Of a stretch of DNA of 64,000 nt, positions 7,925 through 55,078 are shown piece after piece. A program made the position numbers and the translations under genes. Origin of the DNA: an uncultured bacterium. GTDB lineage: Bacteria > Hydrothermota > Tepidihabitantia > Tepidihabitantales > Tepidihabitantaceae. A model generated the notes under the pieces. That model saw only the letters and a program-made list of their open reading frames with translations. It did not search any database and was not told where the DNA came from. Numbering within the stretch: position 1 is the first letter of the stretch; every line of letters begins with the position of its first letter. Location: assembly GCA_965370805.1 (NCBI GenBank), contig CBDUVZ010000002.1:706-64705 (forward strand), written 5' to 3'.

Positions 7925-8023
7925 CCGAGCCTGGTCCGCGCGCCGGTATCGGAAGTCAAACCCCTGGGCCGACACAAACAGGTGCTGCAGCCATACCGGG
8001 GCACGCTGGTAGCAGGCCTCGGC

Positions 8024-13134: not shown

Positions 13135-13261
13135 CCTCTAGCTTGGGCTCTTGGGTTCGGTCCCAGCATCATATCGTTACATCTGTCGAGAAGCGATGGT
13201 ACCCGGCTTCCGGGTTCAAGCTTCTGGGGCGCAGGATGACACTGAAAAGAAGGAGGTCTGC

Positions 13262-23698: not shown

Positions 23699-26600
23699 CT
23701 ACCGGTCGAGCAGCAGCACTTTGTGGGTTGAGGTCCGGTCCTCAGACCTGACCAGCAGGAAGTGGACGCCGGATGCCAAACCTCTGACCGGAAGATTCAG
23801 ATTATGCTTCCCCGGGCCAAGCTGAGTCTTCGGGAAGGCTGTAACCTTCCGGCCAGCCGTGTTGTAGAGGCTGAAGGTAACGTCGCTGACGCTGGGGATT
23901 TCGACGGAGAGCCTGATGCGTCCACTCGTCACCGGGTTCTCCAGCAACCTGACTTTGTAGGCGTACAGTTCCTCGGTCGATGATTCCGCGATGCCGATAG
24001 GAAGAAGCTCGTATATCTGGAACCCGGCATAGTAGTCGGCTACGTAGATGTACGGGCTCACCGCAGCCACTCCGCGGGTTGAGCCTGGGGTGTTGTAGTA
24101 GCCGACTCCGTGCGGATTGACCGGGTCAGACACATCAATTACCCACAGTCCACCGGTTCTGCAGGCGACATGGGCGTACTGGCTATCGACTGCTACATCT
24201 ACGGTGTAGCTCGAACCAGACCAGTGGCCGACGTCACAGGGATTTGTCGGGTCAGACACATCGATCATGTGCAGGCCGCCTCGATAGCTTGCGACATAGG
24301 CGTACCGGCCGCGAACCGCGACGCCTCTGGTGTCGGAAATCTGACAGTAACCAACCTCATGTGGATTTGCCGGGTCCGACACGTCGATTACCCGCAAACC
24401 AGCGTCGTCAGCAGCCACATAGGCGTAGTCGCCTTGCACTGCGACGCCTTCGGCATTGTCCGGGGTCTGACAAGACCCAACTTCCTGTGGATTCCGAGGA
24501 TTGGATATGTCAATCACCCGCAAACCGGCGTCGTCAGCAGCCACATAGGCATGTTGGTTCTGGACCGCGACACTGTTGGCGTCATCCGGTGTAGTGCAGT
24601 AGCCCAAGGCTTGAGGATTTGCCGGGTCGGACACATCGACAATACCCAGCCCGGCATCGTCAGCCGCCAGATAGGCGAGCTGACCTATGACCGTCAGGCC
24701 GAACACTCTGTCCGGCGTGGAACAGTGTCCGACCTCTCGTGGTTTGGTGGAGTCGGCAAGATCAAGGATACGCAGGCCGTCATGGTAGTTGGCCAGGTAG
24801 GCGTAGTGACCTGCCACCGCGACATCCCTGGTTCTATCAGGAACGTCGAACTGCCCGACGAGATGGGGGCCACGTGGGTCCGGTACGCTGACTACCCACA
24901 GGCCGCCGTCTTCGTCGGCAACGTACGCATGCGAGTCGAAAGCCGCCACGGCGCAGGCTGAGCCATCAAGCTGGCAATAGCCGACTTCACTCGGGCTTGC
25001 CGGGTCGGACACATCCACCAACCACAAGCCGGCCTCGTAGTCTGCTACATAGGCGAACATGCCTCTGATTGCCACACCGAGGGCTCTGTCCGGTACCGGG
25101 CAACAGCCTGTCTCCCGAGGGTTTGCCGGGTCGGAGACATCTATCACCCGCAGTCCGTTCTCCCAGCTAGGAACATAAGCGAAGTCGCCCTCCACCCAGA
25201 CGTCAGCGGCGTGGCTTGCAGTGGTGCACTGGCCGACTCTGTGCGGGTCTGTCGGGTCGGAGACATCAATCACCCGCAGGCCGTTCAAGTAGTCGGCAAC
25301 GTAGGCGTACTGTCCTTCGACCGCAACACCACAGGGGTCGTCAAAGGCATCACAGCGTCCGACCCCGGTCGGGTTTGCCGGGTCGGATACATCCACTACC
25401 CACAATCCGTCGGAGCAGTCAGTCACGTAGGCATATTGACCCTTGATCGCCACACTGGTGGCTTCCTCCGGGTCACGGCACCAACCGACCTCAAACGGCC
25501 CGGTTGGGTCAGTGATATCGATAACGCATAGTCCTTCCTCCTCGGCCGCCAGATAGGCATATCCGTTTTCCACGGCCACGCCCTGGACGAAACCCGGGAT
25601 GTGGCAGGAACCGACTTCATGTGGGTCGGTTGGGTCGGAGATATCGATCACCCGCAACCCCCAGTCCTCGTCGACGACGTAGGCGTACTGGCCCTGGAAT
25701 GCGACATCAACGGCCATGCCCGGAATCAAACAGTAGCCTACTTCCTGGGGGCCGGTCGGGCAGGACACATCGATTACTTGCAGGCCGTTCTGGTAGTCGG
25801 CGACATAGGCGTGCTGACCTGTAATCGCGACGCTCTGCGCGTCAACGATGTCCTCAAAGCAGCCGATCTCCACCGGTTCTCCCGGGTTCGACGCGTCGAT
25901 GATTCGGAGGCCCTCGTCGCTGGCCGCTACGTAAATGTGCCAGCCAACGGCCTCGACGCCAATAGCGTCGCTTGGTGTTTCACAATGGCCGATTTCCCGT
26001 GGATTGGAGGGATCGGCGATGCTGATGACCCGCAGACCTTCAGCCAAGTCAGCTACGTACGCAAACCAGGCTGCGACCGTGACGTCACAGGCACAATCCT
26101 GTGTCTCGCAGACACCCACTTCGTACGGGTTTGACGGGTCCGATACGTCGACTACCTGCAGGCCTTCATTCCCACCGGCCACATAAGCATACTGGCCGCG
26201 AACCGCTACTCCGTAGGCGTAATCTGGAGCAACGGCGGAGCCGACCTCGTGGGGGTGCACCGGATCAGACACATCGACCACGCAGAGGCCGGAGTTGCCG
26301 TTGGCCAGGTAGGCAAGGTTCCCCACAACCACGACTTCCTCGGTGTAGCTGCTCGTGCCGTGCCCACCGAGCCTCGTCGGTTCCGACGCTGATGAAACAT
26401 CCCAGATATCGAGCCCTGCGGATTTCGCCGCCACGTACAGCCTCTGTGTTGAGCTTTCGTAGAAGAGGCCCTTGACCACACCACGGGTACGGATCGGCTC
26501 ACCGGTCTCTCGGGGTTGGTTGAGATTGGAAACGTCGAGGATATACACCGCGCCGCCGGACCCGCAGAACGCGAGTTGTCGGACGGTATCGACGGCGACC

Positions 26601-26719
26601 GCATAGCACGGCCCGAACGGCCAGTTGCCGATGAATCTGACATTCAGGGAATCGCTGCCAACAGCCGTTCCACAGACCACCAGAATCAGGCCGAAAACCG
26701 CCAAGACTTTCTTCTTCAT
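23699..26719 (-). CDS. LVIVD-repeat beta-propeller protein with T9SS C-terminal sorting domain
   Basis: About 20 repeats of AY.VAV.G.YAYVAD...GL.VIDVSDP..P.EVG. Start at MKKKVLAVFGLILVV signal peptide. C-terminus is T9SS-CTD-like. Confidence 0.8.
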   Translation of the reverse strand: MKKKVLAVFGLILVVCGTAVGSDSLNVRFIGNWPFGPCYAVAVDTVRQLAFCGSGGAVYILDVSNLNQPRETGEPIRTRGVVKGLFYESSTQRLYVAAKSAGLDIWDVSSASEPTRLGGHGTSSYTEEVVVVGNLAYLANGNSGLCVVDVSDPVHPHEVGSAVAPDYAYGVAVRGQYAYVAGGNEGLQVVDVSDPSNPYEVGVCETQDCACDVTVAAWFAYVADLAEGLRVISIADPSNPREIGHCETPSDAIGVEAVGWHIYVAASDEGLRIIDASNPGEPVEIGCFEDIVDAQSVAITGQHAYVADYQNGLQVIDVSCPTGPQEVGYCLIPGMAVDVAFQGQYAYVVDEDWGLRVIDISDPTDPHEVGSCHIPGFVQGVAVENGYAYLAAEEEGLCVIDITDPTGPFEVGWCRDPEEATSVAIKGQYAYVTDCSDGLWVVDVSDPANPTGVGRCDAFDDPCGVAVEGQYAYVADYLNGLRVIDVSDPTDPHRVGQCTTASHAADVWVEGDFAYVPSWENGLRVIDVSDPANPRETGCCPVPDRALGVAIRGMFAYVADYEAGLWLVDVSDPASPSEVGYCQLDGSACAVAAFDSHAYVADEDGGLWVVSVPDPRGPHLVGQFDVPDRTRDVAVAGHYAYLANYHDGLRILDLADSTKPREVGHCSTPDRVFGLTVIGQLAYLAADDAGLGIVDVSDPANPQALGYCTTPDDANSVAVQNQHAYVAADDAGLRVIDISNPRNPQEVGSCQTPDNAEGVAVQGDYAYVAADDAGLRVIDVSDPANPHEVGYCQISDTRGVAVRGRYAYVASYRGGLHMIDVSDPTNPCDVGHWSGSSYTVDVAVDSQYAHVACRTGGLWVIDVSDPVNPHGVGYYNTPGSTRGVAAVSPYIYVADYYAGFQIYELLPIGIAESSTEELYAYKVRLLENPVTSGRIRLSVEIPSVSDVTFSLYNTAGRKVTAFPKTQLGPGKHNLNLPVRGLASGVHFLLVRSEDRTSTHKVLLLDR

Positions 26720-27312
26720 CGTAACCTCCCTAATCATGGGGTCGGCGGGAATCCCGAGACAGTTGTCTCTGCTGTGGCACCCGAAGTAGTGCGCCGCAGA
26801 AGCCTCGGGGTTCCTATCCCTACCCTCAATCAGGATATGGGAGCAGCAACTGATGTCAAGGCATCGCCGCCCACCGCCAGCAGACTGGGTTTCAGTTCCC
26901 GGCGCGGGCCGATGCGGGCCTCCTGCTTCCGTTTCTGCCCCGGAACCTGACCGGCATACTTACAAACCACCTGGAATCGTGACTGACAGCGGTTCTGGCC
27001 GTAATCCTGGCATGGCTTCTGGATGTCAGGCTGCATAAGTATCTGAAAAGGCTGCTGGATACGACCTTGTCTGTATGGCTGGGGTACGTCCTCGTTGGGA
27101 TTCTGTAACCGATGCTGGCGGTTCATCTGGTTCGGCATCTGACCAGGGGGGTGACTTCCCTGGTGATTTAGATTGCGGCTCTGCAATTTCCGACCTGGCA
27201 ACCGTTAGTTTCCGGGTCCTTTCCGGCTCTATCTATGTAACGACACAGAAAGAAAGGTCGGGCCGGAGGAAACAAGCTGACAGATGGCTATGAAGAAAGG
27301 AGCTGATGACTC

Positions 27313-27739: not shown

Positions 27740-30520
27740 CTACTCGACGATCAGCTTCCCGGTGCCGGACCATGTCCCCTGCTCGGCACGAACGAAGTAG
27801 ATCCCGGGCGACATGCCCTGCAGGTTCAGAGTGTATCCCGCGAAGCTGGGGATGGCCGTCTGTGTTCGCAGCAGCTTGCCGTCGGCATCGAAGACTTGCA
27901 CTATTGCGGCATCGGTTCCGGACAGGGCAATGCTCGCCTGGGTACGGGCCGGATTGGGCTGGATCACGAGTCGGGAACCGAACGGTATAGGTTGAAGCAG
28001 CGCCGGTTCGCGTTCGGTGCGGATGCCAGGACCGGTGCTGTAGTTGTAGCGCCAGAACTCCATGGTCTTGTTGCCCTTGAGAGCGAAAAAGAGGCCGTTG
28101 CCCAGGCTGACGAGGTCCGCGCCGTATTTCACGCGCTTTTTCCTGCCGGTGGAGCCGAACGACGGCATGGTGTCGAGTTCGTACCACGAGTCGGCCCAGG
28201 GCGAGTACTGCCAGAATTCCTGCGTGTTGCCACCCTTCAGGCAGAACATCTGGTTGATGAGCCAGGCGCCTGAGCCACCGTCCTTGAGTTTCTTGCGCCG
28301 GCCCGCCCTCCCGACGAACGGCATGTCGGCGAGTTGCTCAAGCCAGCTGCCATTCGCGACGTCGTAGGCAAAGGTCTCATTGTACTTGGACTTGCAGCAG
28401 TAGATGGTGCCGGCGCCATCATGGACAATGAAAGAGCCGTACTTGTACTTGTTCTTGCCCGAGTTGCCCAGTGGAGCCGAAGTCAGAGTACTGTCCCACA
28501 CGCCGGTGACGGTATTGTAGCGGTAGAACTCGTTCTTGTAGCCCTTCAGCAGATAGACCCAGCCGGTGTCGCCTAGGACAAGGTACTGCATCTTGGTACC
28601 GCCCTTGATTTTCTTCCCGGTTGCGCCGAGCGGGATGTTAGCCATTTGTGTCCACGCAGTGTCGGTCGTGCCGTAACGCCAGAACTCGACCGTGTTGTTG
28701 CCCTTGACTGCGTAAATGTGGTGGCCGCCGTCATTGCACAAGGCCCCGCCTTTGTAGACCTGCTTGTCGCTTGGACCGTCCGGAACGGATTTCATCTGCT
28801 CCCAGGCGTCAACTGCCACGTTGTACCGGTAGAAATCCCCGGTCTTATTGCCCTTGAGTGCGTAGATGAACCAACCATCAGACTGACTTGTGAGGGTAAG
28901 CGCTCCGCCCCGTTTGACTTCCTTGTTGCTGGGCGGCTTGGGCATGGGTGCCATTTCGGTCCAGCCGGGCGGTATCGGCGGGGCATCAACAGTGAAAAGA
29001 GCCTGGGAGGCATCGTTGGATGGAACCGCATCGCCGGCCAGCTCGGTAGAGCAGGAAGCCACGTAGCTGCCGAGCGTTGCGTTCCAGTTCAGAAAGGTGA
29101 CGTCCTGGGATGCTCTGGGCTGGAGGCCGTTGATGTAGATCGAGTCGATGTAGACAACAGAACCTCCTCGGCGTATCCGGAACTTGACGCCGAAGCTTTC
29201 GGTGAACCCGCCGTAGTTGCGGATACGGGCGCTCGGCAGGACTGGGCCGGGATAGATACTTCCGGTGGGTACCAGGATAGCTTCCACACCGACATTGTGG
29301 TGCGGGGGACCAACTACAAAGGAAGATCGGAGGATATCGTTCCGGGTATCCATGTCGTCGCTGTACCCGGTGCTGCAGGCCATGGCAATCGTGCCCAGCG
29401 TCTCGGCCTGCCATTCACGGAATGTCACGTCGCGAGTCACCCTGGGTACCAGGTTCTCGACGAGTACGCTGTCCAGCCAGGCCTGTATCCGGAAGTAGCA
29501 GTAGAACGCGGAAATAGTCTCGGTGCCGAAGTTCTTCACTCGTGCCTGAGGCGTAACGACCATGCCCGAGTCGACGGTGTCGGGTGGTAAAGTGATCCGG
29601 AAGACTCCGGCGTCCCGCACGACCACAGTGACGGCTGTATCAGCCCGGTCATTGGCCGGATTGATGTCGCCGGTGAGCATGGTTCTGCATAAAACATGGT
29701 TGACTCCACGCTCGGTGGCTGTCCAGTCACGAAAAGCGATACGACGGGTGCTGCCAGGACCCAGGTCGTCGACCAGAGTGGTGTCGGTGTATCCAGAGCC
29801 AATTGTCATTCTCGTCCAGAACGTCTCGGCACTGGCACCGTAGTTCTTGACCGTCGCCTCGGGTCTTACTACGTGATTCGAGTCAACCGCACCGATGGGC
29901 GTCTCGACTGTCAGGACCCCCACGTCAGACGAGGAGTTCATGCCGGTGACGCTGACGTCGTCTATTGCCCAGAAGGTGATGTGTTCGGTGATGCCGTCGA
30001 ACGCCCAGGCCAGGCGGACGTTCGATCTGTTCGCGGCCCAGGGAAGCGCAAGAACCTGCAGCTCCGGCCCGATGATACGCTGGTAGTAATCAAAGACCAC
30101 GTGTTCGAAGGGACCGCCATCCACCGAGCCGACGAGTGCGATCCGGTAGGGTTGGTCTTCCCCGCCGCCGTAGTACGTGGAGCACCGCAGGACGACGAGG
30201 TTGAAATCAGAGCAGTTAATAGACGGACTGATGAGGCTGTCAACGTTCTGTATTTCAGGCGGCTGTGAGTGCAACAGCGCGTACGGTGTCGCGTTGTCCG
30301 TCCACGGGTCCAGCTCGAGGTCAGGAGCCCGGTGCCAGTCATTGCTGCTGGTATCAGCAGGGCCGAATACGATTCGCCAGCCCGCGGGTGGTTGGACGGT
30401 CGACCAGGAACCGTTGAAGTTCTCGGAAAGCAGAATATCCTGGGCCGGGGCTGCTGCGGGAACGAACAATGCCGCCAGCAGTAACGCCGCCAGGGTCCTT
30501 AGAGTAATGAAGGATTGCAT
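27740..30520 (-). CDS. Giant secreted T9SS cargo protein paralog (~926 aa): signal peptide, choice-of-anchor-J/MAM-like N-domain, CARDB-like repeats, 4 Lys-rich repeats, T9SS CTD
   Basis: Start set at MQSFITLRTLAALLLAALFVPAAAPAQ (ATG 30520, AGGAAAT RBS). The longer listed ORF adds 123 low-complexity codons. The C-terminal half is collinear with the C-terminal half of 13262-18058. Confidence 0.8.
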   Translation of the reverse strand: MQSFITLRTLAALLLAALFVPAAAPAQDILLSENFNGSWSTVQPPAGWRIVFGPADTSSNDWHRAPDLELDPWTDNATPYALLHSQPPEIQNVDSLISPSINCSDFNLVVLRCSTYYGGGEDQPYRIALVGSVDGGPFEHVVFDYYQRIIGPELQVLALPWAANRSNVRLAWAFDGITEHITFWAIDDVSVTGMNSSSDVGVLTVETPIGAVDSNHVVRPEATVKNYGASAETFWTRMTIGSGYTDTTLVDDLGPGSTRRIAFRDWTATERGVNHVLCRTMLTGDINPANDRADTAVTVVVRDAGVFRITLPPDTVDSGMVVTPQARVKNFGTETISAFYCYFRIQAWLDSVLVENLVPRVTRDVTFREWQAETLGTIAMACSTGYSDDMDTRNDILRSSFVVGPPHHNVGVEAILVPTGSIYPGPVLPSARIRNYGGFTESFGVKFRIRRGGSVVYIDSIYINGLQPRASQDVTFLNWNATLGSYVASCSTELAGDAVPSNDASQALFTVDAPPIPPGWTEMAPMPKPPSNKEVKRGGALTLTSQSDGWFIYALKGNKTGDFYRYNVAVDAWEQMKSVPDGPSDKQVYKGGALCNDGGHHIYAVKGNNTVEFWRYGTTDTAWTQMANIPLGATGKKIKGGTKMQYLVLGDTGWVYLLKGYKNEFYRYNTVTGVWDSTLTSAPLGNSGKNKYKYGSFIVHDGAGTIYCCKSKYNETFAYDVANGSWLEQLADMPFVGRAGRRKKLKDGGSGAWLINQMFCLKGGNTQEFWQYSPWADSWYELDTMPSFGSTGRKKRVKYGADLVSLGNGLFFALKGNKTMEFWRYNYSTGPGIRTEREPALLQPIPFGSRLVIQPNPARTQASIALSGTDAAIVQVFDADGKLLRTQTAIPSFAGYTLNLQGMSPGIYFVRAEQGTWSGTGKLIVE

Positions 30521-30558
30521 GGCTATTTCCTGTACTTGGTCAGTATGCCTTTCATGAA

Positions 30559-30586
30559 ACATAGCCGATAGATGCCGGTCGTCAAT
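30559..30586 (-). promoter_or_regulatory. Sigma70-type promoter TTGACG-16-TATGTT (minus strand) for the giant paralog
   Basis: Read from the reverse complement. The -35 overlaps the stop of the dipeptidase gene. Confidence 0.4.
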
Positions 30587-31628
30587 CGGAAAGCCGAATC
30601 GGGTCTGCGGCCCGCGCAGCCGTGCTCCAGATCCGCAGGAAGTTCTCGCCGAGGATTCTCCTGACGTCGGGCTCTGAGAAACCCCGGCGCAGAAGCCCCG
30701 CGGTGACTGCCGGCATCCGGGTGACGTCCTCAAGACCTTTGGGCGGCGGGTCACTGAACCCGTCGAAATCAGAACCGAGAGCAACCGCGTCGACGCCGGC
30801 AACGGAAGCTGCATGCTCGATATGATCGAGCACGTCTTCGAGGGAGACCTTGCGGTAATCCTTGCGGAGGAAGTACGGCAGAAAGACAACTCCGATAACT
30901 CCGTCTGCTTCGCCCAGGACCCGGAGTTGTCGGTCGGTCAGGTTGCGGGGAAACCGGCGCAGGGCGCGACACGCGGAATGGGAACAGATGACCGGCGCGG
31001 AACTCGCAGCCAGCACGTCGCTGAAAGTCATGTCCGACGCGTGGGACAGGTCGATGAGCATCCCGAGCCGATTCATACGTTTCACCGCTTCGCGGCCGAG
31101 CCTCGTCAACCCCCGGCGGTGTCCGTCCCGGCTCATGCAGGAACGGGCGAACGGGTTGGAGTTGTTCCAGGTCAGGGTGAGGATCCGGACCCCGCGGCGA
31201 AAGAACCGGTCCAGGTTGCCGATGTCACCTTCCAGGGCGTGGCCGCCTTCGACTCCGAGGATCCCCGCAATCCGGCCCGAGGCTCTGATTGTCCGGACGT
31301 CACCCGGGCTGAGCGCCAGGGCAATCTCTTTCGGATAGCGACGGCAGATGCGTTTGAACTCGTCGATTGCCTTGAGGACAAAGGTGGCCCGTTTGCCCGG
31401 CCTGAACAGATCGGGGTTGGTCCAGATTGCGAACACCTGGGCATTGACTCCGCCTTCGCGCAGGCGGGGAATATCAATATGAAATGCGTCGGACCGCTGG
31501 GTGATATCCTTTCGGCCCCGGACGTGCTCGTACAAAGCATCGGTGTGCAGGTCGATGACAAGCGAGCGGTGGTGCAGGTCCAAGGTTGGTCTGATACCGG
31601 ATGCTACCGGTTCAGCCCGGGCGGTCAA
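30582..31628 (-). CDS. Membrane dipeptidase (peptidase family M19, renal-dipeptidase-like)
   Basis: M19 motifs: LVIDLHTD, ILGVEGGHAL, LTWNNSN, IDLSHAS, ICSHSACRAL, GSDFDG. Confidence 0.85.
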   Translation of the reverse strand: MTARAEPVASGIRPTLDLHHRSLVIDLHTDALYEHVRGRKDITQRSDAFHIDIPRLREGGVNAQVFAIWTNPDLFRPGKRATFVLKAIDEFKRICRRYPKEIALALSPGDVRTIRASGRIAGILGVEGGHALEGDIGNLDRFFRRGVRILTLTWNNSNPFARSCMSRDGHRRGLTRLGREAVKRMNRLGMLIDLSHASDMTFSDVLAASSAPVICSHSACRALRRFPRNLTDRQLRVLGEADGVIGVVFLPYFLRKDYRKVSLEDVLDHIEHAASVAGVDAVALGSDFDGFSDPPPKGLEDVTRMPAVTAGLLRRGFSEPDVRRILGENFLRIWSTAARAADPIRLSD

Positions 31629-42441: not shown

Positions 42442-43818
42442 TCAGCGCTGGATGACGACCTTGTGGACCGCTAACCGCTCACCGCTATCCGCTTCCCGCC
42501 GCAAGAAATACACGCCCGGGGAGAGATGCCGGATGTCGTTCTCGCCCGGCGCGAGTTCCGCGACCTTCCGGCCGGAGATGTCGAGGAGGACGCACGACGC
42601 ACCACGCTTGACGCCGGATGCTTCAGGCAGGAACAGTACGTCGCGTACAATTGCGGCCGGAAGCTGTCTGCCATTCGTCATTCGCAATTCGGCATTCGGC
42701 ATGTCCTGGATTCCCGGCGGCACGCTGTCGCGGATGACCGAGATGCTGGAACTCTCATAGTTGCCCACGTACGTCCGGTTCTGCATCGGGTTCCAGGTCA
42801 TAGCGTACGGGTACTCCCCGACCCCAATCGTCTTGACCACGACATTGCTCGCACCGTCAATCACAGTCACGTCGTCGCTTTCCAGATTGGCGCAGTACAC
42901 CTTGTTGTTCGTCTTGTTGAACACCAGTGCAGAAGGTTCAGAGCCGGCCGCAACCGTCGCAATAACCGTATTCAGAGCGCCGTCAATCACGGTCACACTC
43001 CCGCTGCCCGAGTTTGCGCAATAGACCCTGTTCTCGGTCCGGTTGTAGCACAACGCCTTGGGCTGGATTCCCACGCTGACCGTCGCAATCACGCTGTCGG
43101 ATGCACCGTCGATAACTGTTACGGTCGAATCGAGATTGGTGGTGGTTCCGCTGTTGGCGCAGTACATCCTGTTGTCCTGCGAGTTGTAGCAGAAAGCACA
43201 GGCATGAAACCCCGCGGGCACGGCCACTATGACGCTGTCAGCCGCGCCGTCAATCACTGAGACGGTCCGGGAGTACGGATTCGCGCAATAGACCTTGTTG
43301 TCGGCCGGGTTGTAAGCCAGGGCAAAGGGATAGGCTCCGACGTCCACAGTTGCAATCACGCCGCTCGTGGCACCGTCTATCACTGAAACGGTGTTGTCCA
43401 GCGCGTTCGCGCAGTAGACTTTGTTGTCGGCGGGATTCCAACACAAGGCCCGGGGCTGGCGCCCGACTGCCACGGTCGCAATCACGGCATTGGTCTCACC
43501 GTCAATGACAACAACTGTATCAATGTCACTGTCAACATCGTGGGTGCAATACACCCGATTGTCGGTTGAGTTGTGGCACAGCACATAAGGGTAGCGCATC
43601 GTCGGGATGGTTGCGATTATGCTGTTTGACGCGCCGTCGATGACGGCAATGTTGTCGCGCAGGTTGTTCGAGCAGTAAACCCTGTTACCGGTTGGATTGT
43701 AGCACAGCCCCACCGGAAAGGAATTGGACTGCAACTGTATCGTCGTCTCCAGCCACTGGCCGGACGCGACCGACGAAGTCAGAATGCAGAGCGCAGAAAC
43801 CAAAACACAGGATTTCAT
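42442..43818 (-). CDS. YVTN-family beta-propeller repeat protein with T9SS C-terminal sorting domain
   Basis: Eight repeats of ...N.VYCAN...VSVIDGA...VIATV.VG..P.AL. Signal peptide. CTD ...GVYFLRREADSGERLAVHKVVIQR. Confidence 0.8.
   Translation of the reverse strand: MKSCVLVSALCILTSSVASGQWLETTIQLQSNSFPVGLCYNPTGNRVYCSNNLRDNIAVIDGASNSIIATIPTMRYPYVLCHNSTDNRVYCTHDVDSDIDTVVVIDGETNAVIATVAVGRQPRALCWNPADNKVYCANALDNTVSVIDGATSGVIATVDVGAYPFALAYNPADNKVYCANPYSRTVSVIDGAADSVIVAVPAGFHACAFCYNSQDNRMYCANSGTTTNLDSTVTVIDGASDSVIATVSVGIQPKALCYNRTENRVYCANSGSGSVTVIDGALNTVIATVAAGSEPSALVFNKTNNKVYCANLESDDVTVIDGASNVVVKTIGVGEYPYAMTWNPMQNRTYVGNYESSSISVIRDSVPPGIQDMPNAELRMTNGRQLPAAIVRDVLFLPEASGVKRGASCVLLDISGRKVAELAPGENDIRHLSPGVYFLRREADSGERLAVHKVVIQR
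42670..42702. repeat. Heptanucleotide REP-like element, copy F, in frame just upstream of the CTD
   Basis: Reverse complement of gccattcgtcattcgcaattcggcattcggcatg encodes MPNAELRMTNG. Confidence 0.6.
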
Positions 43819-43827
43819 GATAGCTCG

Positions 43828-46494
43828 TTAGCGTTGAATGACTATCCTGGCGGACTTGGCGGTTGATTCGTTTCGGATGAAGTAGACGCCGGATCTGAGA
43901 TGCCGGATGTCATTCGGGCCCGGCAGAAGGTCCATTACCTTCCGGCCGGAGATGTCGAGCAAAGACAATGCCGAATGCCGAGTGTCGAATGACGAATGCG
44001 GAAGAAGAAGTACGTGGCGCACGATGGTTGCGGTCAAGGGTCGGCGGATTGTAGCCACCGGCTTGTCTTCGGTTCCGACGTAGTATTCCACCCGGTACAC
44101 CGGGTAGACCGCGAGGTTGCCGGCAAACGGGGTGCCGAGCCCGAGGTTGTTGCTGGTCGCGGCCTGGGTTTCGAGCGGGACCGCGCAGAGGAAGTTCTCG
44201 CCCATCCAGAGCGTGTCCGTGCCGAAGGACCAGTCCCACTGCCACTGGATCGAGTCCGTGCCCTGGCCGGATGTCACCTGGGTCCATTCCCAGGCCTGGT
44301 GCGCGGTCTGGACCTGGACTATAGCGCCGAGCATCCGGGTCGAGTTCGGGGTCCAGCGGTTCACCGCTTTGCCGGTAATGACCGGGTCGCGCATCTGGGT
44401 CGTGTCGCCGGGCAGATGGTCGAACTCGGCTTTGACCCCGGTGTTCCACACCCGCACCGGGTTGATTACCGTTACACTGCTGTCGTTGGAGTTCGCGCAG
44501 TAAATCCTGTTGGTCACCGGGTTCACCGCAATCGCGTACGGCGCATTTCCTGCCGGCACGAGAACCGTGCTGTTCGTGGCTCCGTCGATCACCATTACGC
44601 TGTCGCTGCCGTAGTTCGCCACGTACACTTTGTTGGTTATCGGGTTCACCGCAATCGCGTACGGTGCGTCTCCTGCCAGCACGAAGGTGGTGCTGTTCGT
44701 TGCCCCGTCAATCACGGTCAGATCGTCGCTGCCGCCGTTCGCCACGTACACTTTGTTGGTGACCGGGTTCACCGCCACGGCCCGTGGTGCGTCCCCGACC
44801 GGCACGAGCGTGGTGTCGTTGGTAGTTCCGTCAATCACGGTCACGTTATCGCTCTGGAAGTTCGCGCAGTAGATCCTGTTGGTCACCGGGTTCACCGCAA
44901 TCGCGTACGGTTCCGTCCCGGCTGGCACGAGCAAGGTGTCGTTCGTGACACCATCGATGACCGTTACGTTATCACTCCAACTGTTCGCTACGTACACCTT
45001 GTTGGTCGCCGGGTTCACCGCCACCGCACGGGGCATGGTTCCGGTTGGAACCAGAGTCGTATCGAGGGTCGCTCCGTCAATCACGGTCACATTGCCGCTG
45101 CTGCCGTTCGCTACGTACACCTTGTTCGTTGCCGGGTTCACCGCAACGGCCCATGGCCCGTCCCCGGCCGGCACGAGCGTGGTGTCCATCGTGACACCAT
45201 CGATTACTGTCACGTTGTCACTCAGGGAATTCGGCACGTACGCCCGGTTCGTCACCGGGTTCACCGCAATCGCGCGCGGGTTGTTTCCGGCCGGCACGAG
45301 CGTGGTGTCGCCGGTGGCGCAGTCGATTACGGTTACGTTGTTGCTCGTCACGTTCACCACGTAGGTCTCGTTTGTCACCGGGTTCACCGCCAGTGCCCGT
45401 GGCCGGGCCAGCGTACGTACTCTCGTGGTGCTGTACGTGATACCGTCGATCACGGTCACGTTGTCGCTGCCGCTGTTTACCACGTACACTTTGTTGGTCA
45501 CCGGGTTCACCGCAACCGCGCACGGTTCGGTTCCAACCGGCAGAAGCGTGGTGTCGTTTGTCGCTCCGTCGATCACCGTCACATTGTCGCCGTGCCAGTT
45601 CGTCAGGTACACTTTGATGGTCACCGGGATCACCGCAACCGCGCAGGGCTGGTTTGCCGTCGGGACGAGCGCAGTGTCGTTCGTGGCCCCGTCAATCACC
45701 GTCACATTGCTGCTGTAAAAGTTCGCGCAGTAAATCCGGTTCGTTACCGGGTTCACCGCAATCGCATACGGTCCATTTTTTGCCCGCACGGTTGTTGTGT
45801 TGTTGGTGATTCCGTCAATCACCGTCACGTTGTGGTCGTTGAGATTCGCCACGTAAATCCTGTTGGTCACCGGGTTCACCGCCACGGCCCAGGGTTTGTC
45901 GCCGACCGGCACGAACGTGGTGTCGTTGGTTGCCCCGTCAATCACGGTTACGTTGTCGCTGCCGCTGTTTACCACGTACACTTTGTCGGTCACCGGGTTC
46001 ACCGCAATCGCGCGCGGCTCTGTTCCGACCGGCACGAGCGTGGTGTCGTTCGTGGCCCCGTCGATTACCGTTACATTGTTGCTGCTGTCATTCGCCACGT
46101 ACACCTTGTTGGTCACCGGGTTCACCGCCACGGCGTGCGGCGCGTCTCCGGCCGGCACGAGCGTAGTGTCGTTCGTCGCTCCGTCAATCACCGTTACGTT
46201 GTCGCTGCCGCGGTTCGCCACGTACACCTTGTTGGTCACCGGGTTCACCGCAACCGCATACGGCTCTAATCCTGCCCGCACGCGGATGGTGCTGTTCGTA
46301 GCCCCGTCAATCACCGTTACGTCGTTGCTGCCCGCGTTCACCACGTACACCTTGTTGGTCACCGGGTTCACCGCAACCGCCTGCGGGTTTTCTCTGACAT
46401 TGACGGTCGCCGTAACCCAGTCCGCCGTTGCCGGCGCTGCCGTGATTGCCAGCAGCACCAGGGCTGCGGTCAGGGCATGTCTTACGTTCTGCAT
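43828..46494 (-). CDS. Large YVTN-family beta-propeller repeat protein (~17 repeats) with T9SS C-terminal sorting domain
   Basis: Signal peptide MQNVRHALTAALVLLAITAAPATA. 41-aa repeats VNPVTNKVYVAN..SDNVTVIDGATNDTTLVPAG..P.AVA. CTD ...GVYFIRNESTAKSARIVIQR. Confidence 0.8.
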   Translation of the reverse strand: MQNVRHALTAALVLLAITAAPATADWVTATVNVRENPQAVAVNPVTNKVYVVNAGSNDVTVIDGATNSTIRVRAGLEPYAVAVNPVTNKVYVANRGSDNVTVIDGATNDTTLVPAGDAPHAVAVNPVTNKVYVANDSSNNVTVIDGATNDTTLVPVGTEPRAIAVNPVTDKVYVVNSGSDNVTVIDGATNDTTFVPVGDKPWAVAVNPVTNRIYVANLNDHNVTVIDGITNNTTTVRAKNGPYAIAVNPVTNRIYCANFYSSNVTVIDGATNDTALVPTANQPCAVAVIPVTIKVYLTNWHGDNVTVIDGATNDTTLLPVGTEPCAVAVNPVTNKVYVVNSGSDNVTVIDGITYSTTRVRTLARPRALAVNPVTNETYVVNVTSNNVTVIDCATGDTTLVPAGNNPRAIAVNPVTNRAYVPNSLSDNVTVIDGVTMDTTLVPAGDGPWAVAVNPATNKVYVANGSSGNVTVIDGATLDTTLVPTGTMPRAVAVNPATNKVYVANSWSDNVTVIDGVTNDTLLVPAGTEPYAIAVNPVTNRIYCANFQSDNVTVIDGTTNDTTLVPVGDAPRAVAVNPVTNKVYVANGGSDDLTVIDGATNSTTFVLAGDAPYAIAVNPITNKVYVANYGSDSVMVIDGATNSTVLVPAGNAPYAIAVNPVTNRIYCANSNDSSVTVINPVRVWNTGVKAEFDHLPGDTTQMRDPVITGKAVNRWTPNSTRMLGAIVQVQTAHQAWEWTQVTSGQGTDSIQWQWDWSFGTDTLWMGENFLCAVPLETQAATSNNLGLGTPFAGNLAVYPVYRVEYYVGTEDKPVATIRRPLTATIVRHVLLLPHSSFDTRHSALSLLDISGRKVMDLLPGPNDIRHLRSGVYFIRNESTAKSARIVIQR
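43966..44001. repeat. Heptanucleotide REP-like element, copy G, in frame inside the CTD
   Basis: caatgccgaatgccgagtgtcgaatgacgaatgcgg encodes HSSFDTRHSAL, replacing the EASGVKRGASCV segment of the paralog 42442-43818. Confidence 0.6.
44450..46400. repeat. Intragenic tandem array of ~16 near-identical ~123-bp units encoding the YVTN repeats
   Basis: Recurring strings such as gggttcaccgcaatcgcgtacgg and ccgtcaatcacggtcac at ~123-nt spacing, seen directly. Confidence 0.7.
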
Positions 46495-47553
46495 CTGCGC
46501 CTCCTTCGGTGAATCCGGAACAAGCCCGGATTACTCTTCATATTCCTGCATATTCGATTTCGTCCAAGCGGCTTTCTTGTCAATCTTCATAGTGGGGTGG
46601 GGATAGGCACCGGAGAACCGTTGCCGGTCCCTGTCCGCTTCTGGTGGTTCTTCTCCACAGGCCTAACTTCTATCGGAATCGGGCGGGATGTCAAGCGCAG
46701 TACTCGCGGGCCGGGCGTGGGCTTCCGGTAGAACTACCAAGCATCTGAGGAAAGGAGAGCCGCAGAGAATGTACCGTTTCGTTTGTATCGACGACAATCG
46801 TGAGTTGGCCGCGCATCTGACGTGCCTTGGGTTTGGGCAGGTGTCCGGGTGGGTGTCCCGGTGCGTCATGGTCGGTGTTGCGCCGACCGTTGTCTTGCCC
46901 GGTGTGGGCGGCGCGATCCGTGCCCTGGAGCTGACAGTTGAGCGTGCCGCTGCCCGAGTCGCTGTCCTTGCCGTGATTCTTGCCGCAGGTCGGGTCCCAT
47001 CCGTTGCCGGAGCCGTTGGCTTGAGCCGGTATGTTGCCGGTGATGCGTTGGTTACCGTGGCTCGGGTCGGGGCATCGGCGGCCAGGTGGGTCGTCAGGGT
47101 CATGGCTACGGTGGGGGTAACCGGGTAGGTGATAAGGTAAGACACCGGCAGAAGTTAGGCGGAATCGCGTTTCCGGACTGGAGGGCGGGTCCGAGAGACA
47201 CATCAGCAGGTATGATAACTCTCTGAAGTGTAAGTGGTAAGTGGTTCGGACGCGGCGATTGATGGTCCGTCGGTATCGTGAGCGGCCACTGGTGCCGGCA
47301 CGGCGGTGACCGTGAAAACGCCCGGGATTCGATGGGTGGACCGGGTGCCGTTAGTCGGCTTGGCCCAGGCCTTGCGCCGGATCTTCCGGCAGAGTCCGGA
47401 GCCGGAGCGGATGCGGAGCATGGCCGAGGCCGTAGTTGACATCCGGGCAGATTCGGGTAGAAACTATGGTGAGGAATCAAGGAGAACAACCGTGTTGTCG
47501 ACGCGCGGGCGGACGGGAAGCTCTCACGGCAATCCGCAACCAGAGGAGGCGAG

Positions 47554-48423
47554 ATGAAACGTAGCATCGTAGTTCTGTTCCTGCTGGTCCTGGCGACCGG
47601 TCCGGTCCTGGCCGATACCACCTACGTGGAGATCGGCAGTCCCTACATCAAGAACGCAATTCCGTTCTGGGGCGACGTACACGACGCGTGCCGGCTGCAA
47701 CTGCTTTATCTCCAGAGCGAGATAGACCAGGCCGGGACGATTGTCGCTTTCGGTCTGTGCTGCACCGAAGACGCGCCGAGCTGGTTCCGCAAAGTCAGGG
47801 TCAAGCTCTGTCACACTCCGGCGTCGTCCCTGGTTTCCACCTTCCAGGCCAACTACGGCGGCAATACGCCCCAGACCATCCTCAGTGCCGATTCCCTGCT
47901 CGTTGGCACCGGCCAGAACCTGACCTGGTACTATTTCCCTTCGGACTTCGTGTACAACAACACCGACAATCTGCTCCTGGAGATTACCTGGCGCGGCGAC
48001 GAAGGTCGTCGGGTAAGAGTCTGGCGCAATCCCAACGGCGCCGACCGCCGTTGCCATGCGATGAACGATACCGCGGTCAGCGGCACGGTCGATGACGTCG
48101 AGGCATACTACGCCCGGATCGGGTTCACCCCCACCGGCGCGACCGAACCCCGGGAGATCGGACTCATGCCGCTGAGCTTCAACGTAACCCCGACGCACGG
48201 GCGCGCGCCATTCCGGATATCCGGCTCAACCTTGCTCGCGGGCAAGCCGGAACTGACCATCTGGGACCCGACCGGCCGGCTGGTCGAACGGCTGAACCCG
48301 GTTCTGAACCAGGGCCGGCTCGAAGCGCGCTGGAACGCAACCGGTATTCCGGCCGGGGTGTACCTCTGCCGGCTGCAGTCCGGCGCGAGCTGCGCGACCC
48401 GCGTCCTGACCCTGATGCGCTAG
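47554..48423 (+). CDS. Secreted hypothetical protein with T9SS C-terminal sorting domain
   Basis: Signal peptide MKRSIVVLFLLVLATGPVLA. AGAGGAGG RBS. CTD ...GVYLCRLQSGASCATRVLTLMR. Confidence 0.7.
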   Translation: MKRSIVVLFLLVLATGPVLADTTYVEIGSPYIKNAIPFWGDVHDACRLQLLYLQSEIDQAGTIVAFGLCCTEDAPSWFRKVRVKLCHTPASSLVSTFQANYGGNTPQTILSADSLLVGTGQNLTWYYFPSDFVYNNTDNLLLEITWRGDEGRRVRVWRNPNGADRRCHAMNDTAVSGTVDDVEAYYARIGFTPTGATEPREIGLMPLSFNVTPTHGRAPFRISGSTLLAGKPELTIWDPTGRLVERLNPVLNQGRLEARWNATGIPAGVYLCRLQSGASCATRVLTLMR

Positions 48424-53386: not shown

Positions 53387-55078
53387 ATGTTCAAGACCAT
53401 GATTGCGATTCTGGGTGTGGTGCTGGTTGGCACGCTCACTCAACCGGCCAGGGCGAGTGATATCGAGCCGGGCGCTGCGACCGATTCGGCCCCGCCGTAT
53501 CAGCAGGGGTTCCCGGTGTACACCGGCGGCAATTGCAGTGAGACATCGGCCCAGGTTGCCGACATCGACGGTGACGGTGATATGGAAGTGCTGATCGGCG
53601 GCGGGCAAAGCCTGAGGGTGTTTCACCATGATGGCACAGTGGTAGCCGGATTCCCGGTTTCGGTCGGCGGGCACGCCACCCAGACCGCGGCGATTGCCGA
53701 CATTGACGAGGATGACGAGGTGGAAATCGTCATCGCCGGTCAGCGTTCCCAGTTGTACGTATACAAAGGCGATGGCACGCTCAAGTCTGGCTGGCCCCAG
53801 TCCTTGGGCGACGACGACGGTGCCGCCTGTTCGCCGGCCCTGGCTGACTTGGACGGTGACGGTGACCTCGAAATCGCTATTGGTACGTTCCGGGACCTGA
53901 ACGGCAACAACGGGTACATCCCGGCCCGGTTCTACGTTTTCCATCACGACGGAACTATCTACGAAGGCTGGCCGGTTGATTCGGTCGACCATTTCTCCGT
54001 ATCTTCGACCCCCGCGATTGGAGACCTAGACGGTGACGGGGACCTGGAAATCGTTGTCGGGGGCAGGGATTCTCACAACTTGTGGGCGTTCAACGCGGAC
54101 GCGACGATTGTACCGGGCTGGCCGGTGCATGTGTCCGGGCTGGTGGAATCATCGCCGACCCTGGCTGACATTGACGGGGACGACGACCTGGAGGTATTCC
54201 TCGCCACGGCGGCGGAGCGAGTGTACGCATTCCATCATGACGGCACGCCGGTTGAAGGCTGGCCCCAGTCGATGGGGTACGGGAATCAGCGTTCGTCGCC
54301 GGCCCTGGGTGACATCGACGGGGACGGTGACATCGAGATAGTATGCGGGTCTGCGGGACGCAAGATGCACGCCTGGCATCATGACGGCACGCAGGTTGAG
54401 GGCTGGCCCCAGGAAACCGGGTCGTTCACGCAGGGCACGCCGGCGCTTGGGGACGTTGACGGTGACGGGGACATTGAGATTGTCGGGGGTGCGTATTCCG
54501 GGGTCTACGTCTGGCACCACACCGGCGCGCTGTTTCCCGGATACCCGCTCCCCACCGGTTGGTCAAGGTCCTCGCCGTGCCTGGCCGACCTGGACCTGGA
54601 CGGGGACGTGGAAATACTCATTGGTTCTTTGGATGATTCGCTCTTTGTCTGGGACCTGCCCGGAGCCTATGATACAAGCAACGTCGAATGGGGCGCGTTC
54701 CGGCATAACCTGTGGAACACGGGGTTCAACAGTCGGACCTACGTTGGGGTCGCGGAGGAGAGGGTTCCAGAGTTCGAGGGGTCCAGGGGTCCAGGAGGCG
54801 GAGCGGGACTGGTGCAGAACCACCCCAATCCTTTCGCCCGGTCGACCGAAGTCAGCTATCAGTTGAAGGTCAGGTCGAACGTGAGCCTGAAGGTGTATGA
54901 TGTCGGCGGGAACCTGGTCAGAACCCTGGTGGATAGGATGCAGGAACCCGGTCAGCATAGCGTTATCTGGGATGGCAGGAGTTCGTCAGGCGCAGATATG
55001 GGGGCCGGCACGTACTTCTGCCGGCTGGCAGCCAATGGCCGTGCCGATACCGGCATCCCGCACTTGGTGAAGCGATAG
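53387..55078 (+). CDS. FG-GAP/VCBS (integrin-alpha-like) repeat beta-propeller protein with T9SS C-terminal sorting domain
   Basis: Signal peptide. Eight repeats of ADIDGDGD.EIV..G....V.HHDGT...GWP. CTD LVQNHPNPF...GTYFCRL... Confidence 0.8.
   Translation: MFKTMIAILGVVLVGTLTQPARASDIEPGAATDSAPPYQQGFPVYTGGNCSETSAQVADIDGDGDMEVLIGGGQSLRVFHHDGTVVAGFPVSVGGHATQTAAIADIDEDDEVEIVIAGQRSQLYVYKGDGTLKSGWPQSLGDDDGAACSPALADLDGDGDLEIAIGTFRDLNGNNGYIPARFYVFHHDGTIYEGWPVDSVDHFSVSSTPAIGDLDGDGDLEIVVGGRDSHNLWAFNADATIVPGWPVHVSGLVESSPTLADIDGDDDLEVFLATAAERVYAFHHDGTPVEGWPQSMGYGNQRSSPALGDIDGDGDIEIVCGSAGRKMHAWHHDGTQVEGWPQETGSFTQGTPALGDVDGDGDIEIVGGAYSGVYVWHHTGALFPGYPLPTGWSRSSPCLADLDLDGDVEILIGSLDDSLFVWDLPGAYDTSNVEWGAFRHNLWNTGFNSRTYVGVAEERVPEFEGSRGPGGGAGLVQNHPNPFARSTEVSYQLKVRSNVSLKVYDVGGNLVRTLVDRMQEPGQHSVIWDGRSSSGADMGAGTYFCRLAANGRADTGIPHLVKR
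54762..54800. repeat. GGGTCCAGG/GGGTTCCAG plus heptamer repeat element, copy I, in frame immediately upstream of the CTD
   Basis: gagggttccagagttcgaggggtccaggggtccaggaggcgg encodes RVPEFEGSRGPGG before LVQNHPNPF. Confidence 0.55.

What the first reader, a model, noticed from the sequence alone, without database searches (positions are those of the whole stretch)
44450..46400. ~16 near-identical 123-bp tandem repeats inside a YVTN beta-propeller T9SS gene, a likely hypervariable/contingency locus
The repeat units are nearly identical at the nucleotide level, not just the protein level, implying recent expansion or homogenisation by recombination. Such arrays change copy number readily and can vary surface-protein size. 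They are also prone to assembly collapse, so the true copy number may differ. The adjacent paralog 42442-43818 has 8 more diverged repeats.
Basis: seen in the sequence. Interest (0 to 1): 0.55.

Follow-up and report, generated by a model that had tools for sequence, protein, structure and literature searches.

The report
Sixteen-blade YVTN propeller gene, not hypervariable
The 123-bp periodicity is the DNA footprint of 16 beta-propeller blades in a secreted surface protein whose blades are only about 70% identical and whose blade number is probably fixed by the fold, so it is an ordinary structural repeat and not a fast-switching locus.

Summary
The repeat array is real: 16 in-frame units of exactly 123 bp (41 aa) with no indels, at window 44416-46383. 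They lie in an 888-aa gene on the minus strand (43828-46494). The units are not near-identical. Nucleotide identity averages 70% (maximum 84%), no pair reaches 90%, and only 9 of 120 pairs reach 80%. Third-codon-position identity is 60%, median dS is about 0.7, and the longest exact repeat is 40 nt.

The count of 16 recurs in a candidate division WOR-3 ortholog and in 95 of the 120 best-scoring homologs from many phyla. This argues for a structurally locked number, not a contingency locus.

Synonymous-site patterns show that blades within each ortholog share ancestry more recent than the species split, through old concerted evolution or re-amplification.

Relatives in short-read metagenomes are nearly always truncated or reduced to 1-3 units, so caution about assembly is fair for the family. 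This window shows no sign of collapse.

The parts
43828..46494 (-). YVTN16 gene, 888 aa: signal peptide, 16 YVTN blades, beta-sandwich, linker and CTD
   Evidence: ORF. TIGR02276 E=1.6e-91. AF2 model has pLDDT 91.1 and pTM 0.86.
46500..46507 (-). Shine-Dalgarno-like GAAGGAGG, 5 nt upstream of the ATG at 46494
   Evidence: Read directly from the sequence.
46423..46494 (-). Sec-type signal peptide, aa 1-24 (MQNVRHALTAALVLLAITAAPATA, then DW)
   Evidence: By inspection: charged n-region, hydrophobic core and an A-T-A motif. The model has a helix at aa 2-17. Orthologs share the same '...ATADW' junction.
46384..46422 (-). N-terminal extra strand (aa 25-37, DWVTATVNVRENP) resembling the last strand of a repeat unit. 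It supplies the strand that the truncated unit 16 lacks.
   Evidence: Strand E26-32 in the model. Sequence comparison with the units.
44416..46383 (-). Array of 16 tandem 123-bp / 41-aa YVTN units (aa 38-693). Unit 16 (44416-44538) is conserved only in its first ~26 aa. Predicted to form two 8-bladed beta-propellers.
44080..44457 (-). Post-array beta-sandwich domain (about aa 680-805), conserved across the whole family (W735 nearly invariant, G765 invariant)
   Evidence: Alignment A1 consensus. Model strands 687-801. 101 relatives found with this region.
43993..44076 (-). Low-confidence, probably disordered linker (aa 807-834). Its C-terminal end overlaps the first conserved CTD motif TIVRHVLLLP.
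   Evidence: pLDDT below 50 at 807-829 and 831-834.
43831..44028 (-). Short C-terminal sorting domain of the T9SS type A kind (aa 823-888: TIVRHVLLLP...LLDISGRKVMDLLPGPNDIRHLRSGVYFIRNESTAKSARIVIQR)
   Evidence: PF18962 scores 14.9 bits, E=0.033, below the cutoff of 27. BLASTP to the tail of the window's Kelch protein (which scores 32.6 bits against PF18962) gives E=0.006. hhalign against PF18962-positive tails gives 97.2% probability, E=3.7e-11.
42442..43818 (-). YVTN8 paralog, 458 aa, 9 nt downstream and probably co-transcribed: signal peptide, 8 diverged YVTN units with two conserved Cys per unit, and the same CTD type
   Evidence: CTD is 53% identical to that of YVTN16.

Best explanation
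The 123-bp periodicity is the coding footprint of a structural protein repeat. The gene at 43828-46494 (minus strand) encodes a Sec-exported protein with 16 tandem 41-residue YVTN blades, which most likely fold into two closed 8-bladed beta-propellers. These are followed by a family-specific beta-sandwich, a flexible linker and a short sorting domain of the T9SS type A kind. That domain would take the protein across the outer membrane and display it on the cell surface of what is probably a candidate division WOR-3 bacterium.

The blades descend from one ancestral blade sequence. They were amplified, or homogenised by gene conversion, after this lineage split from its nearest sequenced ortholog. 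That happened long ago (dS about 0.7, 70% nucleotide identity), and the blades have since diverged under purifying selection (dN/dS about 0.36).

Blade number is held at 16 by ring closure, so the array is evolutionarily dynamic in whole-propeller steps (8 and 16, or 7 in a paralog) but is not a switch. Its function is inferred, not shown: an extracellular binding or adhesion scaffold. The same 16-blade-plus-sandwich module is fused in other phyla to whatever surface anchor that phylum uses (SLH, Ig-like, FN3, X2 or CTD).
For: Shown by computation:
- Units and their identities; YVTN membership.
- AF2 model with pLDDT 91.1 and pTM 0.86.
- There are 16 units in 95 of the 120 best homologs, array span median 647 aa, always N-terminal.
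- There are 16 units in the WOR-3 bin69 ortholog L002 4318-6963, which is 58% identical globally and colinear, and 16 in P0085.
- A single-ring 8-unit relative, P0102, has the same C-terminal domains.

Concerted evolution:
- Third-position identity within arrays is 0.74 (P0102), 0.605 (query), 0.568 (L002) and 0.437 (P0085). The between-protein baseline is 0.45-0.46.
- Nearest-neighbour and diagnostic-column tests agree.
- Codon choice is column-specific within the array: Val p=3.6e-7, Ala p=8e-5.
- The same motif columns in the YVTN8 paralog of the same genome use mixed codons, so genome-wide or context codon bias is unlikely to be the cause.
- At identical residues the same codon is used 0.649 of the time, against 0.429 expected from neighbouring genes.

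Other:
- Purifying selection: dN 0.25, dS 0.71.
- CTD evidence. Other proteins in the window carry CTDs above threshold.
- WOR-3 relatives. Varied anchors in homologs.
- The framework of amplification followed by differentiation is from Pereira & Lupas 2022 (PMC9218822).
Against: - The Por_Secre_tail score is below Pfam and NCBIfam thresholds, and no T9SS machinery was looked for or found in the window.
- The taxon (WOR-3) is inferred from the closest relatives only.
- There is a weak positional-orthology signal between query and ortholog (diagonal 0.641 against 0.612, permutation p=0.02), so homogenisation was not complete, or some ancestral order persists.
- Four metagenome ORFs of the same ortholog group have only 1-3 units. 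If they are real and not collapsed assemblies, copy number is less stable than I claim.
- No experiment addresses function.
Confidence: 0.8

Rival explanations
1. One reading: a hypervariable or contingency locus. Unit number changes frequently by slipped-strand mispairing or unequal recombination between near-identical units, varying the size of the surface protein.
For: - The units are in perfect register with no indels.
- 46 exact in-register repeats of 20-40 nt exist and could support rare RecA-type exchange. The length needed for such exchange is my own background knowledge.
- Four metagenome ORFs of the ortholog group have only 1-3 units, and many contigs end in the array.
- Blades have been homogenised in the past.
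Against: - Units are 70% identical and none reaches 90%; dS is about 0.7.
- There is no excess of long exact runs over shuffles, and neighbouring units are no more alike than distant ones.
- The count is 16 in the ortholog and in 95 of 120 homologs.
- A closed 2x8 propeller fold cannot accommodate changes of one unit.
- Arrays of 1-3 units cannot close a propeller, and they occur only on short short-read contigs, so assembly collapse is the simpler reading.
Confidence: 0.05
2. An ancient, position-orthologous 16-blade array. The 16 blades have been inherited vertically since before the phyla diverged, and their similarity is only protein-level constraint towards a strong consensus plus codon bias. 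No concerted evolution or re-amplification occurred.
For: - The unit consensus is conserved across phyla: any query unit is about 58% identical to any unit of distant homologs.
- The count of 16 is conserved.
- Positional orthology is clear in moderately related pairs, e.g. P0019/P0078 (0.76 against 0.55) and P0086/P0111.
- There is a weak diagonal signal between query and L002 (p=0.02).
- P0085 shows no within-array excess at third positions.
Against: - Third-position identity is 0.605 within the query against 0.453 to the ortholog and 0.465 at the same position.
- All 30 units have their nearest nucleotide neighbour in their own protein.
- Rare codons are shared by most blades of one protein only, e.g. 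Gly column 38 is GGA in 8 of 12 query units and 1 of 13 ortholog units. GGA is 25 of 214 Gly codons in neighbouring genes.
- The paralog in the same genome lacks these column-specific codons.
Confidence: 0.12
3. An assembly artefact: the array in the window is collapsed, expanded or shuffled relative to the real genome.
For: - Relatives are badly assembled. A 100-N gap replaces most of a second copy in the 'complete' WOR-3 chromosome (L003 5862-5961).
- All 18 relatives on contigs of at least 5 kb are incomplete, and the 17 whose N-termini were inspected begin inside or just after the array.
- Four ORFs look collapsed.
Against: - Every unit is unique, with no shared exact run longer than 40 nt.
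- The ORF is intact with RBS, signal peptide and CTD.
- The count and the array span (641 aa) match the family mode and median (16 units; 647.5 aa) and the ortholog.
- The model closes with pLDDT above 90 across all blades.
Confidence: 0.03

Closest known systems
YVTN-family beta-propeller repeat proteins (TIGR02276; Pfam Lactonase PF10282 / YncE-like PF21783), with the solved example PDB 1L0Q: Methanosarcina mazei surface-layer protein, YVTN propeller plus PKD domain
   Different: 1L0Q and E. coli YncE (3VGZ) are single 7-bladed rings. Here 16 blades are predicted to form two 8-bladed rings, the blades are far more alike (median 66% aa), and the anchor is a CTD and not an archaeal S-layer context.
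Highly repetitive ('recently amplified') beta-propellers, e.g. the WRAP domain of Nostoc punctiforme Npun_R6612 (Pereira & Lupas 2022, PMC9218822; Afanasieva et al. 2019, PMC6805158)
   Same: Median blade identity is above the 60% cutoff used in that survey. That survey recovered highly repetitive members in two Lactonase-like (PF10282) families, and this protein matches PF10282. Blades of one protein share nucleotides that differ from those of all blades of an ortholog, which is the paper's signature of independent amplification. Multi-ring predictions for arrays above 12 blades are also reported there.
   Different: WRAP has no synonymous differences between blades. Here dS is about 0.7, so this array is at a middle stage of differentiation. 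The count of 16 is conserved across phyla and is not idiosyncratic.
T9SS type A CTD cargo proteins of Bacteroidota / the FCB group (Por_Secre_tail, PF18962 / TIGR04183)
   Same: N-terminal signal peptide plus an extreme C-terminal beta-rich tail with the 'D..G..V......G.....L..GVYF.r......K.v..' pattern. hhalign gives 97% probability against bona fide tails. NCBI names WOR-3 homologs 'T9SS type A sorting domain-containing protein'. Neighbouring genes carry tails above threshold.
   Different: The tail is shorter and scores below the curated thresholds (14.9 against 27 bits). The host is probably WOR-3, where T9SS function has not been shown to my knowledge. No machinery genes were examined.
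Tandem-repeat surface proteins with identical DNA repeats that vary in copy number (e.g. streptococcal alpha C / Rib, staphylococcal Bap-type proteins; my own background knowledge)
   Same: A long in-frame tandem array in a surface protein gene.
   Different: Those arrays have (near-)identical DNA units encoding independently folding bead-like domains, so any copy number is viable. Here units are 70% identical and belong to closed rings that need a fixed number.

Membership tests
YVTN beta-propeller repeat family (TIGR02276) | Multiple ~40-residue repeats scoring above the curated cutoff of the repeat model | tested here: met
   E=1.6e-91, 300 bits against 27.85, 15 stretches. A unit HMM finds 16 units at exact 41-aa spacing.
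YVTN beta-propeller repeat family (TIGR02276) | Repeats fold as four-stranded blades of a closed beta-propeller | tested here: met
Highly repetitive beta-propellers (Pereira & Lupas 2022) | At least 2 consecutive blades with median blade-to-blade identity above 60% | tested here: met
   Median aa identity is 65.9% over 16 units; mean is 67.3% over the 15 full units. Criterion quoted from PMC9218822.
Highly repetitive beta-propellers (Pereira & Lupas 2022) | Nucleotide-level signature of amplification independent of orthologs (positions where the blades of one protein share a base different from the blades of another) | tested here: met
   There are 7 diagnostic columns, and all 30 units have their nearest neighbour in their own protein. 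A four-protein comparison agrees.
Very recently amplified propellers (WRAP-like) | Few or no synonymous differences between blades | tested here: not met
   dS median 0.71; third-position identity 0.605.
T9SS type A CTD cargo | C-terminal Por_Secre_tail domain above the curated threshold (PF18962 / TIGR04183) | tested here: inconclusive
   PF18962 scores 14.9 bits against 27, and TIGR04183 is not reported at E<0.01. Profile-profile comparison with PF18962-positive tails gives 97.2% probability, E=3.7e-11.
T9SS type A CTD cargo | N-terminal Sec signal peptide | tested here: met
   By inspection only: MQNVRHALTAALVLLAITAAPATA, then DW. Conserved in orthologs. No signal-peptide predictor was available.
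T9SS type A CTD cargo | Genome encodes the T9SS machinery (PorV/U, Sov/SprA, PorK-N/GldK-N), and the CTD is cleaved on secretion | not testable with these tools
   Only a 64-kb window is available and machinery genes were not looked for. Cleavage and anchoring need experiments.
Contingency / hypervariable tandem-repeat locus | (Near-)identical repeat units at the DNA level that allow frequent slippage or unequal exchange | tested here: not met
   Mean identity 70%, maximum 84%, longest exact repeat 40 nt, no excess over shuffles.
Contingency / hypervariable tandem-repeat locus | Copy number differs among close relatives or within a population | tested here: inconclusive
   No relative closer than about 58% identity exists in the collections searched. 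More distant orthologs have 16, 16 and 8 units. Four short-read ORFs have 1-3 units, and collapse cannot be told from deletion.
Contingency / hypervariable tandem-repeat locus | Protein architecture tolerates any copy number | tested here: not met
   Closed 8-bladed rings are predicted. Family counts cluster at 16, with minor 14-15.

The most novel reading that the evidence does not exclude
Within one orthologous group of candidate division WOR-3 surface proteins, the blade array is repeatedly re-amplified or homogenised while blade number stays quantised at one or two 8-bladed rings. The four arrays examined then form a natural time series of the amplification-differentiation cycle: third-position identity 0.74, 0.61, 0.57 and 0.44. 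On this reading, the 1-3-unit ORFs seen in metagenomes are real in-register recombination products segregating in populations and not assembly collapses. The locus would then be recombinationally active at the population level even though it is not a classical contingency switch.
Probability: 0.15. Interest if true: 0.5.

Novelty: new member of a known kind. Interest (0 to 1): 0.22.

Why it matters
Mainly as a correction. Periodicity that looks striking by eye in raw sequence can be a 70%-identical structural repeat whose copy number is probably fixed by protein fold closure. It should not be flagged as phase- or size-variable without measuring unit identity.

There is also a modest positive result. 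The 16-blade YVTN module plus beta-sandwich is a widespread extracellular unit conserved across phyla, and no function has been reported for it as far as I know. The WOR-3 orthologs offer a small, clean example of concerted evolution of propeller blades at a fixed blade number, which bears on how beta-propellers arise by amplification of single blades.

Practically, genes of this group are systematically broken or shortened in short-read metagenome assemblies. Counts of such surface proteins in MAGs are therefore likely underestimates.

Tried and rejected
- Exact-protein look-up found no record.
- Rfam found no family at gathering score anywhere in the window.
- Promoter and terminator scans around the two genes were at chance level.
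- The 1.06-kb ORF-poor spacer at 46495-47553 contains only two weak inverted repeats.
- TRF's 369-bp period was rejected as a higher-order repeat, because there is no 3-unit periodicity in identity.
- I looked for recent gene-conversion tracts as over-long exact runs and found none beyond shuffle expectation.
- Positional orthology with 95 distant homologs is absent (0.585 against 0.584). With the WOR-3 ortholog it is weak (p=0.02).
The genome scan gave orthologs of 54% identity or less. The metagenome scan gave two CTD-only hits. The search with the C-terminal domain gave 101 relatives, all incomplete or shortened.
- L003, the second copy in CP070680.1, could not be used for counting because a 100-N gap replaces the array. 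Its three remaining units mostly share L002's codon pattern, which does not discriminate between hypotheses.
- I considered genome-wide or context-dependent codon bias as the cause of the column-specific codons. I rejected it because the YVTN8 paralog in the same genome uses mixed codons in the same motifs.
Full report
**1. Observation**

Tandem Repeats Finder reports one large array in the window: 44508-46380, period 123, 15.2 copies, 72% matches, score 1412. The array lies in an 888-aa ORF on the minus strand, 43828-46494.

In protein register there are 16 units of exactly 41 aa with no indel, at aa 38-693 (window 44416-46383). The last unit is conserved only over its first ~26 residues.

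The key adjective is not.
- Pairwise nucleotide identity between units has mean 70%, median 71% and maximum 84%. None of 120 pairs reaches 90% and only 9 reach 80%.
- Identity by codon position is 0.75 / 0.76 / 0.60.
- NG86 gives median dS 0.71 (range 0.20-2.1), dN 0.25 and dN/dS 0.36.
- The longest exact direct repeat is 40 nt.
- The 46 exact in-register runs of at least 20 nt are no more numerous or longer than in shuffles that permute codons within columns (p about 0.15).
- Neighbouring units are no more alike than distant ones, and TRF's 369-bp period has no counterpart in the identity profile.

DNA-level periodicity is still detectable.

**2. What the gene is**

*Repeat family.* The repeat is the YVTN beta-propeller repeat: TIGR02276 E=1.6e-91, 300 bits against a cutoff of 27.85, 15 stretches. 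Pfam Lactonase and YncE-like also match. The best solved relative by sequence is the Methanosarcina surface-layer YVTN propeller 1L0Q, E=2.7e-42.

*Start and signal peptide.* A GAAGGAGG motif lies 5 nt before the ATG. The N-terminus, MQNVRHALTAALVLLAITAAPATA followed by DW, reads as a Sec signal peptide. This is by inspection only.

*Fold.* An AlphaFold2 model built on a 70-sequence alignment has pLDDT 91.1 and pTM 0.86, with four strands per unit.
- The 7-bladed YncE, WDR5 and 1L0Q score lower, and YncE and WDR5 align fewer residues (277-281).
- Eight units of 41 aa make 328 residues, so the 16 units most likely form two 8-bladed rings.
- I could not open the coordinates. Ring membership of each blade is therefore inferred. 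An extra N-terminal strand (aa 26-32) matches the last strand of a unit, and the truncated unit 16 lacks that strand.

*Domains after the array.*
- A ~125-aa beta-sandwich follows the array and is conserved throughout the family (consensus, model).
- Next is a low-confidence linker (aa 807-834).
- Last is a short C-terminal tail. It scores below threshold against Por_Secre_tail (14.9 bits against 27).
- The tail matches the extreme C-terminus of the window's Kelch protein, which scores 32.6 bits, at E=0.006.
- As a profile with its WOR-3 relatives, it matches PF18962-positive tails with 97.2% probability, E=3.7e-11.

*Context.* Several other large secreted repeat proteins in the window carry this kind of tail (Kelch/CARDB, LVIVD, FG-GAP).

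*Taxon.* The only genomes encoding a relative of the beta-sandwich region are candidate division WOR-3 MAGs (a fifth locus, from Sediminibacterium, matched the tail alone). The window probably comes from that group. This is an inference.

**3. Is copy number variable?**

*Distant homologs.*
- Among the 120 best-scoring homologs, from WOR-3, Fibrobacterota, Acidobacteriota, Chloroflexota and Firmicutes, 95 have exactly 16 units.
- Of the rest, 11 have 15 units and 4 have 14.
- Three of the four '17s' are 16 units plus a stray distant hit.
- The array always follows the signal peptide and has a median span of 647 aa.
- This ranking favours long arrays, so it says nothing about proteins with fewer units. 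But nothing with 24 or 32 units appears either.

*Orthologs sharing the C-terminal domains.*
- The complete WOR-3 chromosome CP070680.1 encodes an 881-aa ortholog with 16 units (L002 4318-6963). It is 58% identical globally, colinear, and also sits next to a short YVTN paralog.
- P0085 (879 aa) also has 16 units.
- P0102 (515 aa) has 8 units, a single ring.

Counts of 8 and 16, and 7 or 8 in the short paralogs, fit a number quantised by ring closure. They do not fit a free-running size variable.

No relative closer than about 58% identity exists in the collections I could search, so a true strain-level comparison was not possible.

**4.

Blades within one protein are more alike at synonymous sites than orthologous blades are between proteins.
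- Third-position identity is 0.605 within the query and 0.568 within the ortholog. It is 0.453 between them, and 0.465 at the same position.
- All 30 units have their nearest nucleotide neighbour in their own protein.
- Seven columns are diagnostic. For example, Val at columns 8, 12, 14 and 24 is GTG in most query blades and GTC in most ortholog blades.
- Gly column 38 is the locally rare GGA in 8 of 12 query blades and in 1 of 13 ortholog blades.

Codon choice differs between columns for the same amino acid: Val p=3.6e-7, Ala p=8e-5. The YVTN8 paralog of the same genome uses mixed codons in the same motifs. Genome-wide or context codon bias is therefore an unlikely cause.

This is the signature that Pereira & Lupas (PMC9218822) use for amplification independent of orthologs. 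Gene conversion among blades would give the same pattern.

Across four related arrays, within-array third-position identity runs 0.74 (P0102), 0.605 (query), 0.568 (L002) and 0.437 (P0085). The last equals the between-protein baseline of 0.45-0.46. These look like successive stages of differentiation.

In moderately related pairs elsewhere in the family, positional orthology is plain: 0.76 against 0.55 for P0019/P0078. Homogenisation is therefore occasional, not continuous.

**5. Assembly**

For this window nothing suggests collapse.
- Every unit is unique.
- The frame, RBS, signal peptide and tail are intact.
- The count and span equal the family mode and the ortholog.
- All blades are modelled with high confidence.

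The family is nevertheless hard to assemble.
- A search with the non-repetitive C-terminal 209 aa found 101 relatives, all of 364 aa or fewer.
- All 18 on contigs of at least 5 kb are incomplete. The 17 whose N-termini I inspected begin inside or just after the array.
- A 100-N gap replaces most of a second copy in the 'complete' WOR-3 chromosome.
- Four ORFs have a signal peptide, only 1-3 units and the C-terminal domains. The two whose contigs I retrieved lie well inside them.
- Because 1-3 blades cannot close a ring, I read these as collapsed short-read assemblies. Real in-register deletions cannot be excluded without reads. They would be the strongest support for instability.

**6. Verdict**

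This is an ordinary, if handsome, member of a very large family of extracellular YVTN propeller proteins. It belongs to the known class of highly repetitive propellers at a middle stage of differentiation. The contingency-locus reading is not supported, and the annotation and repeat count are correct.

Its function is inferred only from architecture: an extracellular binding or adhesion scaffold displayed through a CTD. The supporting observation is that the same module is fused to different surface anchors in other phyla.

Interest is low to modest. The most interesting residue is concerted evolution of blades at a fixed, quantised blade number.

Noticed in passing
P0121-P0221; L010 197-1252; L011 3001-3846: Relatives of the non-repetitive C-terminal domain are all 364 aa or shorter. 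All 18 on contigs of at least 5 kb are incomplete, and the 17 inspected begin inside or just after the YVTN array. Four ORFs (P0122, P0135, P0155, P0181) have a signal peptide, only 1-3 units and the C-terminal domains. They are either collapsed short-read assemblies or real in-register deletions.
   Followed up: partly
L003 5862-5961 (CP070680.1, candidate division WOR-3 bin69 'complete' chromosome): A 100-N scaffolding gap replaces the N-terminal part of a second YVTN16-like gene, including most of its array. Upstream of the gap lies a convergent CTD gene and no YVTN units.
   Followed up: yes
window 23699-26737 (-): A 1012-aa protein with 19 LVIVD repeats (PF08309, E=2e-199) and a sub-threshold Por_Secre_tail. 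It is another large repeat-propeller surface protein, and TRF sees no DNA-level tandem signal in it.
   Followed up: no
window 13151-18058 (+), 27740-30889 (-), 53387-55078 (+), 47554-48423 (+): More secreted repeat proteins with CTD-type tails: Kelch+CARDB (Por_Secre_tail 32.6 bits), CARDB+Kelch (34.4 bits), FG-GAP with an FlgD_ig-type tail, and a 289-aa protein with no Pfam family apart from a weak tail. The window is unusually rich in such cargo.
   Followed up: partly
window 8024-8051: A perfect (AATGCCG)x4 heptanucleotide repeat where ORFs 6608-8089 (-) and 8025-9239 (+) overlap. Unlike the 123-bp array, this is the kind of exact short repeat that can slip.
   Followed up: no
window 43996-46269 (+): A 757-aa open reading frame runs antisense to the whole array. 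It is a by-product of the repeated, GC-rich codon pattern. The YVTN model hits identify the minus strand as coding.
   Followed up: partly
window 43819-43827; L002 4309-4317; L010 188-196: The long and short YVTN genes are separated by exactly 9 nt in the window and in a WOR-3 relative (L002). L010 shows the same 9-nt gap after an unidentified 61-aa upstream fragment. The gene order differs: long then short in the window, short then long in L002.
   Followed up: no
window 42442-43818 (-): Most units of the YVTN8 paralog carry two conserved cysteines (..LCYNP..NKVYCAN..) that are absent from the YVTN16 consensus, possibly one disulfide per blade. The L002 counterpart has 7 units where the window has 8.
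   Followed up: partly
window 46495-47553: A 1.06-kb stretch without a convincing ORF lies between the divergently oriented YVTN16 gene and the 47554 CTD gene. It has no Rfam hit and no direct repeats, only a 27-nt, 81% complementary inverted pair (46668-46694 / 47436-47462).
   Followed up: partly
L009 4001-5548 (P0102): A single-ring relative (8 units) has the same beta-sandwich and tail, and the most homogeneous blades seen here (third-position identity 0.74). It shares L002's GTC codons at Val columns 8 and 14, which suggests the 8- and 16-blade arrays of that lineage derive from the same ancestral blade.
   Followed up: partly
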